Part shown: piece after piece, positions 36,069 through 43,784 of the stretch
Layout of the letters: each line of letters starts with the position of its first letter
Position numbering within the stretch: the first letter of the stretch is position 1
Assembly: GCF_006345805.1 (NCBI RefSeq)
Contig: NC_043012.1
Coordinates: 2,356,001 to 2,420,000 of the forward strand
Length of the DNA stretch: 64,000 bases
DNA from: Octopus sinensis
Taxonomy: Eukaryota
Direction of reading: 5' to 3'
Position numbers and translations under genes: made by a program
The notes under the pieces: generated by a model
Told to the model about the DNA's origin: nothing
Database searches by the model: none
Seen by the model: the letters and a program-made list of their open reading frames with translations, nothing else

Positions 36069-36550
36069 CATTCCTGACATTCCAGACATTCCAGACATTC
36101 CAGACATTCCTGACATTCCTGACATTCCAAAGAGGGTGGCGAAGAGATCAAAGAGGTGTGCCGACATAGATTAAAGAGGAGTGCCGACATAGATCAAAGA
36201 GGAGTGCCAACATAGATCAAAGATGGTGCCGAAAGAGATCAAAGGGGCTTCCGCCAGAGATCAAAGATGGTGCCGGCAAAGATCAAAGAGGAGTGCCGAC
36301 AGAGGTCAAAGAGCCTGTTGACAGAGATCAAAGATCGTGCCAACAGAGATCAAAGCCGGTGCTGAAAGAGATCAAAGATGGTGCGGACAGATATTCCAGA
36401 CATTCCTGACATTCCTGACATTCCAGACATTCCAATTTTTGACATACCAGACATTCCTGACATTCCTGACATTCCAGACATCCCAATTTTTGACATTCCA
36501 GACATTCCTGACATTCCAGACATTCAAATTTTTGACATTCCTGACATTCC
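36069..36550 (+). repeat. 9-bp (GACATTCCW)n blocks (36069-36128, 36391-36550) with a short degenerate 22-bp block (36129-36390)
   Basis: Seen directly. Confidence 0.92.
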
Positions 36551-39500
36551 AAAGAGGGTGCCGAAGAGATCAAAGTGGAGTGCCGACATATCAAAGAGGG
36601 TACCGAAAGAGATCAAAGAGGGTGCCGACAGAGATCAAGGAGGGTGTCGACAGAGATCAAAGAGGGTGCCGACAGAGATCAAAGAGGGTGCCGACAGAGA
36701 TCAAAGAGGGTGCCGACAGAGATCAAAGAGGGTGTCGACAGAGATCAAAGAGGGTGTCGACAGAGATCAAAGAGGGTGCCGACAGAGATCAATAAGGGTG
36801 ACGACAGAGATCAAAGAGGGTGCCGACAGAGATCAAAGAGGGTGCCGACAGAGATCAATAAGGGTGTCGACAGAGATCAAAGAGGGTGCCCACAGAGATC
36901 AAAGAGGGTGTCGACAGAGATCAAAGAGGGTGTCGACAGAGATCAAAGAGGGTGCCGACAGAGATCAAAGAGGGTGCCGGCAGAGATCAAAGTGGGTGTC
37001 GACATAGATCAAAGAGGGTGCCGACAGAGATCAAAGAGGGTGCCGAAAGAGATCAAAGAGGGTGTCGACAGAGATCAAAGAGGGTGCCGACAGAGATCAA
37101 AGAGGATGCCGACAGAGATCAAAAAGGGTGTCGACAGAGATCAAAGAGGGTGCCGACAGAGATCAAAGAGAGTGCCGACAGAGATCAATAAGGGTGTCGA
37201 CAGAGATCAAAGAGGGTGCCGACAGAGATCAAAGAGGGTGCCGACAGAGATCAAGGAGGGTGTCGACAGAGATCAAAGTGGGCGTCGACAGAGATCAAAG
37301 AGGGTGCCGACAGAGATCAAAGAGGGTGCCGACAGAGATCAAAGAGGGTGCCGACAGAGATCAAAGAGGGTGCCGACAGAGATCAAAGAGGATGCCGACA
37401 GAGATCAAAGAGGGTGTCTACAGAGATCAAAGAGGATGCCGACATAGATCAAAGAGGGTGCCGACAGAGATCAAAGAGGGTGACGACAGAGATCAAAGAG
37501 CGTGTCGACAGAGATCAAAGAGGGTGCCGACAGAGATCAAAGAGGGTGTCGACAGAGATCAAAGTGGGTGTCGACATAGATCAAAGAGGGTGCCGACAGA
37601 GATCAAAGAGGGTGCCGACAGAGATCAAAGAGGGTGTCTACAGAGATCAAAGAGGATGCCGACATAGATCAAAGAGGGTGCCGACAGAGATCAAAGAGGG
37701 TGACGACAGAGATCAAAGAGCGTGTCGACAGAGATCAAAGAGGGCGTCGACAGAGATCAAAGAGGGTGCCGACAGAGATCAAAGAGGGTGCCGACAGAGA
37801 TCAAAGAGGGTGCCGACAGAGATCAAAGAGGGTGTCGACAGAGATCAAAGAGGGTGTCGACAGAGATCAAAGAGGGTGCAGACAGAGATCAAAGAGGGTG
37901 CCGACAGAGATCAAAGAGGGTGCCGACAGATATCAATAAGGGTGTCGACAGAGATCAAAGAGGGTGCCGACAGAGATCAAAGAGGGTGCCGACAGAGATC
38001 AAAGAGGGTGTCGACAGAGATCAAAGTGGGCGTCGACAGAGATCAAAGAGGGTGCCGACAGAGATCAAAGAGGGTGCCGACAGAGATCAAAGAGGGTGCC
38101 GACAGAGATCAAAGAGGATGCCGACAGAGATCAAAGAGGGTGTCTACAGAGATCAAAGAGGATGCCGACATAGATCAAAGAGGGTGCCGACAGAGATCAA
38201 AGAGGGTGACGACAGAGATCAAAGAGCGTGTCGACAGAGATCAAAGAGGGTGTCGACAGAGATCAAAGAGGGTGCCGACAGAGATCAAAGAGGGTGCCGA
38301 CAGAGATCAAAGAGGGTGCTGACAGACATCAAAAACGGTGTCGACAGAGATCAAAGAGGGTGCCGACAGAGATCAAAGAGGGTGCCGACAAAGATCAAAT
38401 AGGGTGTCGACAGAGATCAAAGTGGGTGTCGACAGATTAAAAAGGGTGCCGACAGAGATCAAAGAGGGTGACGACAGAGATCAAAGAGGGTGCCGACAGA
38501 GATCAAAGAGGGTGTCGACAGAGATGAAAGAGGGTGCCGACAGAGATCAAAGATGGTGCCGACAGAGATCAAAGAGGGTGCCGACAGAGATCAAAAAGGG
38601 TGTCGACAGAGATCAAAGAGGGTGCCGACAGAGATCAAAGAGGGTGCCGACAGAGATCAAAGAGGGTGCCGACATAGATCGACAGAGATGAAAGTGGGTG
38701 TCGACAGAGATCAAAGAGGGTGCCGACAGAGATCAAAGAGGGTGTCGACAGAGATCAAAGAGGGTGCCGACAGAGATCAAAGAGGTTGCCGACAGAGATC
38801 AAAGAGGGTGCCGACAGAGATCAAAGAGGGTGCCGACAGAGATCAAAGAGGGTGTCGACAGAGATCAAAGAGGGTGCCGACAGAGGTCAAAGTGGGTGTC
38901 GGCAGAGATCAAAGAGGATGCCGACAAAGATCAAAGAGGGTGCCGATAGAGATCAAAGAGGGTGCCGATAGAGATCAAAGAGGGTGCCGACAGAGATCAA
39001 AGGGGGTGCCGACAAAGATCAAAGAGGGTGCCGACATAGATCAAAGAGGGTGCCGACAGAGATCAAAGAGGGAGCCGACAGAGATCAAAGAGGGTGCCGA
39101 CAAAGATCAAAGAGGGTGTCGACATAGATCAAAAAGGGTGCCGACAGAGATCAAAGAGAGTGCCGACAGATCAAAGAGGGTGCCGATAGAGATCAAAGTG
39201 GGTGCCGACAGAGATCAAAGAGTGTGCCGACAGAGATCAAAGAGGGTGCCGACAGAGATCAAAGAGGGTGCCGACAGAGATCAAAGAGGATGCCGACAGA
39301 GACCAAAGAGGGTGTCTACAGAGAGCAAAGAGGATGACGACATAGATTAAAGAGGGTGCCGACATAGATCAAAGAGGGTGCCGACAGAGATCAAAGAGGG
39401 TGCCGACAGGGATCAAAGAGGGTGTTGACAGGGATTAAAGAGGGTTACGACAGATATCAAAGAGGGTGCCGACAGAGATCAAAGAGGGTGTCGACAGAGA

Positions 39501-41513
39501 TCAAAGAGGGTGCCGACAGAGATCAAAGAGGGTGCCGACAGAGATCAAAAAGGGTGCCGACAAAGAGGGTGCCGACAGAGATCAAAGAGGGTGCCGACAG
39601 AAACCAAAGAGGGTGCCGACAGATATCAAAGAGGGTGACGACAAAGATCAATAAGGGTGCCGACAGAGATCAAAGAGGGTGCCGACAGAGATCAAAGAGG
39701 GTGCCGACAGAGATCAAAGAGGGTGCCGACAGAGATCAAAGTGGGTGCCGACATAGATCAAAGAGGGTGCCGACAGAGATCAAAGTGGGTGTCGACATAG
39801 ATCAAAGAGGGTGCCGACAGAGATCAAAAAGGGTGCCGACAGAGATGAAAGAGGGTGTTGACAGAGATCAAAGTGGGTGCCGACAGAGATCAAAGAGGGT
39901 GCCGACAGAGATCAAAGAGGGTGCCGACAGAGATCAAAGAGGGTGTCGACAGAGATCAAAGAGGGTGTCGACAGAGATCAAAGTGGGTGTCGACAGAGAT
40001 CAAAGAGGGTGTCGACAGAGATCAAAGAGGATGTCGACAGAGATCAAAGAGGGTGCCGACAGAGATCAAAGAGGGTGCCGACAGAGATCAAAGAGGGTGC
40101 CGACAGAGATCAAAGAGGATGCCGACAGAGACCAAAGAGGGTGTCTACAGAGATCAAAGTGGGTGTCGACAGAGATCAAAGAGGATGCCGATATAGATTA
40201 AAGAGGGTGCCGACATAGATCAAAGAGGGTGCCGACAGAGATCAAAGAGGGTGCCGACAGAGATCAAAGAGGGTTCCGACAGAGATCAAAGAGGGTGCCG
40301 ACAGAGATCAAAGAGGGTGCCGACAGGGATCAAAGAGGTGCCGACAGGGATCAAAGAGGGTTACGACAGAGATCAAAGAGGGTGCCGACAGAGATCAAAG
40401 AGGGTGTCGACAGAGATCAAAGAGGGTGTCGACAGGGATCAAAGAGCGTGCCGACAGAGATCAAAGAGGGTGCCGACAGAGATCAAAAAGGGTGCCGACA
40501 GAGATCAAAGAGGGTGCCGACAGAGATCAAAGAGGGTGCCGACAGAGATCAAAGAGGGTGCCGACAGAGATCAAAGAGGGTGCCGACAGAGATCAAAGAG
40601 GGTGCCGACAGAGATCAAAGTGGGTGTCGACATAGATCAAAGAGGGTGCCGACAGAGATCAAAGAGGGTGCCGACAGAGATCAAAGAGGGTGTCGACAGA
40701 GATCAAAGAGGGTGTCGACAGAGATCAAAGAGGGTGCCGACAGAGATCAAAGAGGGTGCCGACAGAGCTCAAAGAGGGTGCCGACAGAGATCAAAGTGGG
40801 TGCCGACAGAGATCAAAGAGGGTGCCGACAGAGATCAAAGTGGGTGTCGACATAGATCAAAGAGGTTGCCGACAGAGATCAAAGAGGGTGCCGACAGAGA
40901 TCAAAGAGGGTGTCGACAGAGATCAAAGTGGGTGTTGGCCGAGATCAAAGTGGGTGCCGACAGAGATCAAAGAGGGTGCCGACAGAGATCAAAGAGGGTG
41001 TCGACAGAGATCAAAGTGGGTGTTGGCCGAGATCAAAGTAGGTGCCGACAGAGATCAAAGAGGGTGCCGACAGAGATCAAAGAGGATGTCGACAGAGATC
41101 AAAGAGGATGCCGACAGAGATCAAAGAGGGTGCCGACAGAGATCAAAGAGGGTGTCGACATAGATCAAAGAGGGTGACGACATAGATCAAAGAGGGTGCC
41201 GACAGAGATCAAAGAGGTTGCCGACAGAGATCAAAGAGGGTGCCGACATAGATCAAAGAGGGTGCCGGCATAGATCAAAGAGGATGTCGATAGAGATCAA
41301 AGACGGTGCCGACAGAGATCAAAGAGGGTGTCGACAGAGATCAAAGAGGGTGTCGACAGAGATCAAAGAGGATGCCGACAGAGATCAAAGAGGGTGCGGA
41401 CAGAGATCAAAGAGGGTGCCCATATAGATCAAAGAGGGTGCCGACAGATATCAATGACAGTGCAAACACAGATCAAAGACGATGCTGAATGAGATCAAAG
41501 ATGGTGCCGACAG
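36551..41513 (+). repeat. 22-bp satellite (GACAGAGATCAAAGAGGGTGYC)n, about 225 units
   Basis: Continuous tandem array; homogeneous centre, degenerate edges. Confidence 0.98.
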
Positions 41514-43622: not shown

Positions 43623-43661
<39 letters not shown>

Positions 43662-43784
43662 ACCAAACCCTAACCCTTACCCTAACACTAACCCTAACCC
43701 TAACTTTAACCGTAACCGTAACCCTAACCCTAACCGTAACCCTAACCCTAACCCTAACTCTAACCCAAACCCAAACCCTAACCC
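42215..43784 (-). repeat. Degenerate telomeric array (CCCTAA)n = (TTAGGG)n on minus strand, interstitial in this assembly
   Basis: About 260 hexamer units with many variants (CCCTCA, CCCTGA, CCCTAT, CACTAA, CGCTAA, CCATAA, CTCTAA). Confidence 0.97.

What the first reader, a model, noticed from the sequence alone, without database searches (positions are those of the whole stretch)
36069..43784. Compound 9-bp/22-bp satellite fused to a telomeric array with the satellite on the 'chromosome-end' side
Seen: 6.1 kb of satellite runs without spacer into 1.57 kb of (CCCTAA)n, and ordinary SINE-rich DNA lies on both sides. Established: a C-rich top strand points its chromosome end to the left, so subtelomeric DNA would lie to the right. 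Here the satellite sits where the chromosome end should be, and there is no head-to-head TTAGGG/CCCTAA junction as in classic telomere fusions. Inference: this is a dispersed or mobile satellite-telomere cassette, a telomere-to-satellite fusion or healing scar, satellite added onto a former telomere, or a scaffold misjoin.
Basis: partly seen in the sequence, partly recalled or inferred. Interest (0 to 1): 0.72.

Follow-up and report, generated by a model that had tools for sequence, protein, structure and literature searches.

The report
Telomere repeat hitchhiking in mosaic satellites
This 7.7-kb block is a patchwork of two short satellite repeats and a decayed telomere-type repeat, far from any chromosome end in what is likely an octopus genome; its satellite-telomere joint has a sister copy on another chromosome, so it was likely copied in during DNA repair rather than left by a chromosome fusion.

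Summary
In detail: 9-bp/22-bp satellite (36069-42215) runs straight into CCCTAA repeats (42216-43784), with no gap nearby. But the CCCTAA tract is decayed (52% perfect hexamers, longest pure run 6) and is not this chromosome's telomere. The same satellite-telomere joint, with two diagnostic variant strings, occurs at one other place in the genome (C8). Eight loci join the 22-mer to telomere-type repeats, always in the window's polarity; two pairs share a joint. Most 22-mer loci (36 of 40 not selected for the telomere repeat) have none. The 9-mer, 22-mer and hexamer are modules of a dispersed mosaic-minisatellite family with no common ends and no target duplication here. Best reading: a rare microhomology fusion that then moved as a unit by recombination or repair, as Rsp-like/1.688 do in Drosophila. 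A fusion scar or misjoin is unlikely. The fixed polarity stays unexplained: inheritance from few fusions, or a mosaic donor at chromosome ends that this assembly lacks. No reads of this organism were found. The scan had already noted the satellite family on other DNA of this genome; the polarised telomere module is what this locus adds.

The parts
35489..36068 (+). Left flank: piece of a dispersed DNA-transposon-like repeat, cut exactly at the first satellite base
   Evidence: 91% to a copy at G000:C11:53.69M over 581 bp; six other copies continue past this base with non-satellite sequence; the C11 copy carries a DDE_Tnp_IS1595 domain downstream, E 2.2e-11; that downstream part does not follow the array here
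36069..36129 (+). 9-bp block 1 (GACATTCCW)
36128..36391 (+). 22/23-bp block 1, diverged units
36388..36551 (+). 9-bp block 2
36550..41514 (+). Main 22-bp array, about 226 units, 'GACAGAGATC' subtype, with internal exact duplications at offsets 726, 1100 and 220 bp
   Evidence: (202 C-type, 4 A-type units)
41511..42012 (+). 9-bp block 3; its rare 30-mers are shared most with the C8 sister locus
   Evidence: 16 of 339 rare 30-mers shared with L048, best of the fetched loci
42010..42215 (+). 22/23-bp block 3, 'GAAAGAGATC' subtype, next to the hexamer tract; holds a variant string (42168-42194) found only here and on C8
42216..43784 (+). Degenerate (CCCTAA)n tract, 1569 bp; holds a 34-bp variant string (42609-42642) found only here and twice on C8
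43785..43930 (+). Right flank: no continuation of the left element and no target-site duplication

Best explanation
The block is one member of a dispersed family of mosaic minisatellite arrays in which a decayed telomere-type hexamer is one more module, and it was likely copied into a break at this site as a ready-made satellite-plus-hexamer unit. Steps. (1, shown) The 9-mer and 22-mer occur genome-wide, alone or joined to several other short repeats in varying order. (2, shown) Module joints carry 1-4 shared bases, and some joints recur at different loci. (3, inferred) A rare microhomology event fused the 'GAAAG' subtype of the 22-mer to a CCCTAA tract. (4, inferred) The hybrid then spread through homology of its 22-mer part, by template switching, gene conversion or re-entry of a DNA circle; this keeps polarity and explains why the window is a chimera of a 'GACAG'/9-mer part and a 'GAAAG'/hexamer part. 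(5, shown for the cut, inferred for the repair) The unit sits at a point where a transposon copy is truncated, without target duplication, as a repaired break would. (6, inferred) The main 22-mer array grew by unequal exchange or slippage. The hexamer tract is a passenger and likely does not act as a chromosome end.
For: Sister joint on C8: same 22-mer/9-mer/22-mer/hexamer order; junction variant in 2 places and hexamer variant in 3 places genome-wide, all in the window or at C8:18.717M; a shared 44-bp degenerate string, and 4 shared five-hexamer words against 0.0 in shuffles. Second sister pair C7:66.97M and C10:4.09M. The 22-mer units next to the hexamer are of the GAAAG subtype at 8 of 8 loci. 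Mosaic blocks of tens of kb built from the same modules on C9081 and at C13:56.6M. Pre-insertion sites inside SINEs: 6 bp replaced with no duplication (L052) and a 2-3 bp overlap (L062). 72 flanks of 38 loci share junction-proximal sequence only in pairs or one trio. The model is published for Drosophila (PMC7403614, passages).
Against: Polarity is the same at all 10 joints (8 distinct) although the opposite polarity would offer a longer shared word (AGGGT; read from the sequences); several independent DNA-level fusions would not be expected to agree, so the model needs few founding fusions. Hexamer tracts of the other loci share no variant words with the window, so common descent is shown only for the two pairs. 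No donor block with many alternating 22-mer and hexamer modules was found. No empty site exists for the window itself. 22-mer loci lie nearer scaffold ends than a transposon control (p=0.007), which suits a terminal source as well.
Confidence: 0.66

Rival explanations
1. The interstitial cassettes are shed copies of real chromosome ends where the 22-mer is added onto the G-rich telomere strand in one polarity (from an RNA by a Penelope/Athena-type enzyme, or by break-induced copying) and is re-capped by telomerase.
For: Polarity matches terminal retro-addition (element outside, CCCTAA at its 3' end; PMC6431247 passages). Hexamer-22mer-hexamer sandwiches at two loci. Symmetric genome-wide patterns: 4 loci in this polarity, 0 opposite. 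Distal bias of 22-mer loci. A TERT C-terminal exon is present. The assembly reaches no telomere (0 of 51 scaffold ends), so such a donor could be unseen.
Against: No Rfam family, hammerheads included, at gathering score in the window or 8 related stretches; no RT ORF in the array. 0 of 18 loci picked for pure hexamers carry a 22-mer array, including those that run into a contig end or gap. 36 of 40 22-mer loci have no hexamer. One hexamer locus holds a 21-bp 22-mer-like piece in the opposite polarity.
Confidence: 0.15
2. A non-autonomous transposon (Helitron/HINE or MITE type) carries the repeats as internal cargo.
For: Short TTAGGG tracts do sit inside dispersed elements here (L222-L224 share flanks). 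The left flank is a transposon piece. A few arrays share flanks in pairs or a trio.
Against: No terminus common to the family among 72 flanks. Arrays interrupt SINEs with pure repeat at both ends. Other copies of the left-flank element hold no satellite. No terminal inverted repeat in the window's array.
Confidence: 0.08
3. A scar made in place: a former telomere fused to satellite, or telomerase healing of a broken satellite, at this position.
For: The locus is 2.39 Mb from the scaffold's left end, with CCCTAA on the strand expected for a left end; 5 of 7 loci tabulated have the hexamer in the sense of their nearer end (my reading of the strands). The two flanks are unrelated.
Against: Joint and hexamer variants are shared with C8, so at least one of the two is a copy. 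Decay is even along the tract with no pure distal part. No head-to-head joint. C8 could be the copy and the window the original, which this evidence cannot exclude.
Confidence: 0.07
4. Assembly misjoin of a telomere-bearing contig with a satellite contig.
For: No reads of this organism could be laid. Some other hexamer arrays do abut scaffold gaps.
Against: No gap in the window or in 10 kb beyond either edge. The joint recurs in diverged form (78% identity) on C8 and the polarity recurs at 8 loci. Ordinary DNA follows the hexamer tract.
Confidence: 0.04

Closest known systems
Drosophila Rsp-like/1.688 hybrid euchromatic satellite clusters (Sproul et al. 2020, PMC7403614; passages read)
   Same: Unrelated repeats joined at microhomologies; the same joint at several loci; mixed clusters moving as a higher-order unit; template switching, gene conversion or eccDNA proposed.
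   Different: Units are 6-69 bp rather than long monomers; many modules, not two; one partner is the telomere hexamer; spread is across chromosomes; no cross-species synteny or eccDNA data here.
Interstitial telomeric sequences: heterochromatic, subtelomeric/degenerate, fusion and short ITS (PMC6410037; passages read)
   Same: Degenerate TTAGGG tract inside a chromosome, flanked by satellite and mobile DNA, which the review calls common.
   Different: Not head-to-head (fusion type), not 2-25 copies (short type), not shown to be subtelomeric or pericentromeric; copied together with its neighbour satellite.
Terminons / Athena telomere-attached Penelope-like elements (PMC6431247; passages read)
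   Same: Polarity: element on the chromosome-end side, reverse-complement telomeric repeat at its 3' end, sandwiches between telomeric tracts.
   Different: No RT, no hammerhead hit, kilobase-long decayed tracts instead of short stretches, interstitial positions.
[quoted passage not shown]
   Same: Telomeric repeat found next to clusters of sites that resemble transcription-factor targets.
   Different: No binding shown here; germline genome, not tumour; the neighbours resemble TCF and TEAD sites, not nuclear-receptor sites.

Membership tests
Fusion ITS | Head-to-head TTAGGG/CCCTAA blocks | tested here: not met
   only CCCTAA on + in 42001-44000
Fusion ITS | Synteny break: the two flanks are chromosome ends in a relative | not testable with these tools
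   G000 has no relatives in the tool
Short ITS made by telomerase at a break | Few (2-25) hexamers | tested here: not met
   about 260 units, 52% perfect
Short ITS made by telomerase at a break | Tract made anew at the locus, not copied | tested here: not met
   variant strings shared with C8; which of the two is the original is unknown
ITS in the broad sense | Telomere motif tract away from the chromosome end | tested here: met
   2.39 Mb from the end of a 59.5-Mb scaffold; TTAGGG is the reported octopus motif (PMC13218726 passage)
Hybrid satellite clusters (Rsp-like/1.688 type) | Unrelated repeats abut at microhomologies | tested here: met
   1-4 shared bases at the joints, read by eye; no statistical control for overlaps this short
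Hybrid satellite clusters (Rsp-like/1.688 type) | Same joint at several loci | tested here: met
   window and C8; C10:4.09M and C7:66.97M
Hybrid satellite clusters (Rsp-like/1.688 type) | New clusters arise where the partner repeat already lay (synteny); repeats present on eccDNA | not testable with these tools
   no related genome or reads
Terminon/Athena-type element | Hammerhead motif next to the 3' telomeric stretch | tested here: not met
   0 Rfam matches at gathering score in 144 kb; weaker thresholds not run
Terminon/Athena-type element | RT open frame | tested here: not met
   frames in the array are repeat translations only; action in trans not excluded
Terminon/Athena-type element | Polarity relative to the telomeric strand | tested here: met
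   10 of 10 joints at 8 loci
Terminon/Athena-type element | Location at true chromosome ends | tested here: inconclusive
   0 of 51 scaffold ends examined (of 60) carry either array; the assembly does not reach telomeres
Helitron/HINE or MITE cargo | Conserved termini shared by copies | tested here: not met
Helitron/HINE or MITE cargo | TIR or target duplication at the array ends | tested here: not met
   none in the window
TCF/TEAD site clusters | Units match published cores (CTTTGWWS; CATTCCA/CATTCCT) | tested here: met
   206 CTTTGWWS and 51 CATTCC matches in 36069-42215; motifs from PMC4267635 abstract and PMC10810223 passage
TCF/TEAD site clusters | Full helper site RCCGCC | tested here: not met
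   0 matches; RCCG 157
TCF/TEAD site clusters | Protein binding or signal response | not testable with these tools
   needs ChIP, EMSA or reporter assays

The most novel reading that the evidence does not exclude
Octopus chromosome ends are mosaics in which a satellite made of TCF-like sites is added to the telomere's G-strand in one fixed direction and re-capped by telomerase; pieces of these ends, with their transcription-factor-site modules, are then copied into internal breaks in the germline, a natural counterpart of targeted telomere insertion in ALT tumours.
Probability: 0.13. Interest if true: 0.8.

Novelty: new variant of a known kind. Interest (0 to 1): 0.42.

Why it matters
If the best reading holds, long interstitial telomere-type tracts in this genome need not mark old fusions: they can travel as passengers of a satellite, which matters for anyone reading TTAGGG signals as traces of cephalopod chromosome rearrangement or as scaffold ends. 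It also adds the telomere hexamer to a mosaic repeat family whose other units resemble transcription-factor sites. The fixed polarity gives a sharp test: telomere-spanning reads will show whether this satellite is part of real chromosome ends.

Tried and rejected
Read support: the look-up of sequencing runs returned 24 runs, best share 0.36; four laid runs gave no coverage, so these hits likely rest on the hexamer alone; no evidence either way on the junctions. TERT search with PF12009 found nothing (uninformative); PF21399 found one exon. Coding reading of the 9-mer ((DIP)n frames of up to 148-213 codons): dismissed as repeat translation, not tested with RNA. Conserved element ends and TSDs: only 4-6 bp matches under loose anchoring in 19 of 34 loci, none for the window; no shuffle control was run, and I take these as chance or array-internal. 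Motif-core conservation in the 22-mer: ATCAAAG positions 94-100% in the window against 66-99% elsewhere, but the ungapped profile is confounded by 23-bp units and base composition, so it is not used as evidence of selection. Association of the 9-mer with the GACAG subtype (15 of 18 against 4 of 22) is confounded by the query. Hexamer adjacency by subtype was not significant (4 of 22 against 0 of 18, p=0.11). A telomerase-RNA origin for the 22-mer-like piece at C7:51.9M was considered and not tested. One search (earlier findings by sequence) returned nothing. Supplements of papers were not read.
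Full report
What is there. The window is G000:C16:2356001-2420000, so the block starts 2.39 Mb from the left end of a 59.5-Mb scaffold. The animal is likely an octopus; this rests on my recall of its SINE sequences and on the wording of earlier scan notes, not on a call that names it. TRF and the sequence confirm the order 9-mer, 22-mer, 9-mer, 22-mer (about 226 units), 9-mer, 22-mer, CCCTAA. The hexamer tract is 1569 bp, 52% perfect, with no pure run above 6 units and no purer end. 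There is no N in the window or in 10 kb on either side.

The 22-mer is dispersed. A search with the joint region gave 685 matches from 40 scored of 1042 candidates; the 150 rows listed fall in 30 loci including the window. I fetched stretches at the other 29. A search with the 9-mer block (39 scored of 281) added 13 loci with 22-mer. Annotation shows arrays alone or joined to 10-, 13-, 20/38-, 21-, 26-, 34-, 35/37- and 59-bp repeats in varying order and orientation, with continuous mosaics of about 57 kb on C9081 and over 35 kb at C13:56.6M. Some large arrays were not followed to both ends.

The joint is a copy. C8:18.71M has the same 22-mer/9-mer/22-mer/hexamer core. A junction-proximal 22-mer variant occurs at 2 places in the genome and a 34-bp hexamer variant at 3, all in the window or at C8 (one mismatch allowed). 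The two tracts share a 44-bp degenerate string and 4 five-hexamer variant words against 0.0 in shuffles; of 15 other tracts compared, one shares a single word with the window and the rest none. Identity over the joint is 78%, so the copy is not very recent, and the C8 array has other modules at its ends. Telomerase writes pure repeats (established knowledge), so shared variants mean DNA-to-DNA copying of at least one of the two.

How tight is the association? Leaving out the window and the two loci whose match ran into the hexamer (C8, C10:73.3M), 4 of 27 loci and 0 of 13 have a hexamer tract next to the 22-mer. Background is 0 tracts in 875 kb, which puts 4 of 27 at about 4e-9 under a generous upper bound. 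Seen from the other side, 0 of 18 loci chosen for pure hexamer runs carry a 22-mer array (9 loci; 9 more from the first 100 of 1016 places listed); several are fused to other satellites or sit in dispersed elements. So the link is real but minor: neither repeat needs the other.

Polarity. Eight loci join the two (window, C8:18.7M, C10:73.3M, C10:4.09M, C5:133.4M, C6:29.6M, C7:66.97M, and C11:9.85M with about 70 bp of simple repeat between). All 10 joints have the AGATCAAAG strand on the CCCTAA strand; the hexamer lies left, right or on both sides. Two pairs share a joint, leaving 8 distinct joints. Four symmetric genome-wide patterns gave 4 loci in this polarity and 0 in the other; they use the GAAAG subtype and miss degenerate joints, the window's own among them. 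Stricter patterns that cover both subtypes gave 2 loci in this polarity and one exception: a 21-bp 22-mer-like piece repeated 11 times in the opposite sense within the hexamer array at C7:51.9M. The units touching the hexamer are of the GAAAG subtype at 8 of 8 loci, while the window's main array is GACAG: the window is a chimera of two lineages of the same repeat.

How it got in. The left edge cuts a repeated element at the exact base where six other copies run on; one copy carries an IS1595/Merlin-type transposase domain downstream ('Merlin' is my label). The rest of the element does not follow the array, and there is no target duplication or terminal inverted repeat. Two arrays elsewhere interrupt SINEs whose empty form is known from dozens of copies: 6 bp replaced in one, 2-3 bp overlapping in the other; of the other loci tested, none gave a true empty site. 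Among 72 flanks of 38 loci, junction-proximal sequence is shared only in pairs and one trio. This is the picture of repair-associated insertion of bare repeat, not of a transposon with ends.

Mechanism. Sproul et al. (PMC7403614, passages) describe a rare microhomology event that makes a hybrid of two satellites, after which the hybrid spreads through homology of one part and mixed clusters move as units, by template switching, gene conversion or eccDNA. Each testable feature is met here. Under this model polarity is inherited from few founding fusions. That descent is shown only for two pairs, and the opposite polarity would have had the longer shared word, so I keep a rival in which the 22-mer is added to real telomeres in one direction, as Terminons are (PMC6431247, passages). 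For it: polarity, sandwiches, a distal bias of 22-mer loci (median 0.30 of the half-length against 0.53 for 40 transposon hits, p=0.007; 30 loci on placed scaffolds), and a TERT exon. Against it: no Rfam hit, no RT, no 22-mer at the purest hexamer arrays. The assembly cannot decide: 0 of 51 scaffold ends examined carry either array in their last 5-6 kb, apart from one 71-bp tract 2.3 kb inside C26.

Motifs. The 22-mer holds the TCF core CTTTGWWS (PMC4267635, start of abstract in the listing) 206 times but never the full helper RCCGCC. The 9-mer alternates CATTCCA and CATTCCT, the two TEAD sites named in PMC10810223 (one passage). Earlier scan notes had made this point for the family; I confirmed the matches only. 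Labels for other modules (Grainyhead, MEF2, POU, HSF) are recalled and untested. Nothing here shows binding.

Novelty. ITS flanked by satellite and moved by recombination are known (PMC6410037, passages); TTAGGG is the reported octopus motif (PMC13218726, passage). Four searches (listings only) showed no paper on this repeat family; subscription journals and supplements were not seen. Verdict: real, not a fusion scar made here on present evidence, a new variant of hybrid-satellite spread that includes the telomere hexamer; interest 0.42, with a 13% chance of the bolder terminal-mosaic reading.

Noticed in passing
G000:C7:51.923-51.933M (L120, L121): A 9-kb TTAGGG array contains 11 copies of a 45-bp insert made of a 22-mer-like piece plus the first bases of the right flank, i.e. 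the array's own end joint was re-amplified; polarity opposite to all other loci.
   Followed up: partly
G000:C2:206.27M (L118, L119) and C11827 (L134, L135): Tandem units of TTAGGG tract + 18-bp repeat + about 1.1 kb shared sequence; C11827 ends in TTAGGG at its contig end. Candidate true subtelomere unit; no 22-mer.
   Followed up: partly
G000:C17:16.645-16.654M (L128, L129): Purest long tract seen (8.8 kb, 78% perfect) runs into a scaffold gap, followed by a short inverted tract and an inverted copy of the left flank; possibly a misplaced real telomere or a fold-back artefact.
   Followed up: no
L222, L223, L224 (C2:7.97M, 111.27M, 129.0M): A dispersed element carries 6-9 TTAGGG units internally with shared flanks; a second such family at L219, L220, L226. 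Possible seeds of interstitial tracts.
   Followed up: no
L054 (C4:6.43M), L052, L211: 22-mer arrays with a short inverted piece at one end; at L054 the two flanks are inverted copies of each other (99%). Fold-back repair or long-read chimera.
   Followed up: partly
G000:C9081:1-58.8 kb; C13:56.598-56.634M; C13:54.495-54.51M: Large mosaics of 9-, 13-, 20/38-, 21- and 22-bp repeats; C13:54.5M alternates 22-mer and 9-mer blocks for over 15 kb.
   Followed up: partly
L212 (C6:29.648M): The CCCTAA tract grades into CCCGAA and then GCCGAA-type hexamers over about 300 bp.
   Followed up: no
window 23051-23475: (CACG)n microsatellite, 69% GC with 93 CpG in 500 bp.
   Followed up: no
window 1207-1593 (+), 27756-28133 (-): Fragments of a LINE-type RT (RVT_1, E 2.4e-5) and a Transposase_1 domain (E 4.9e-5), both under the curated cut-off.
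   Followed up: partly
G000:C28:8918299-8918481 (-), L238: Exon matching TERT_C above the Pfam cut-off; PF12009 gave no hit in the genome.
   Followed up: partly
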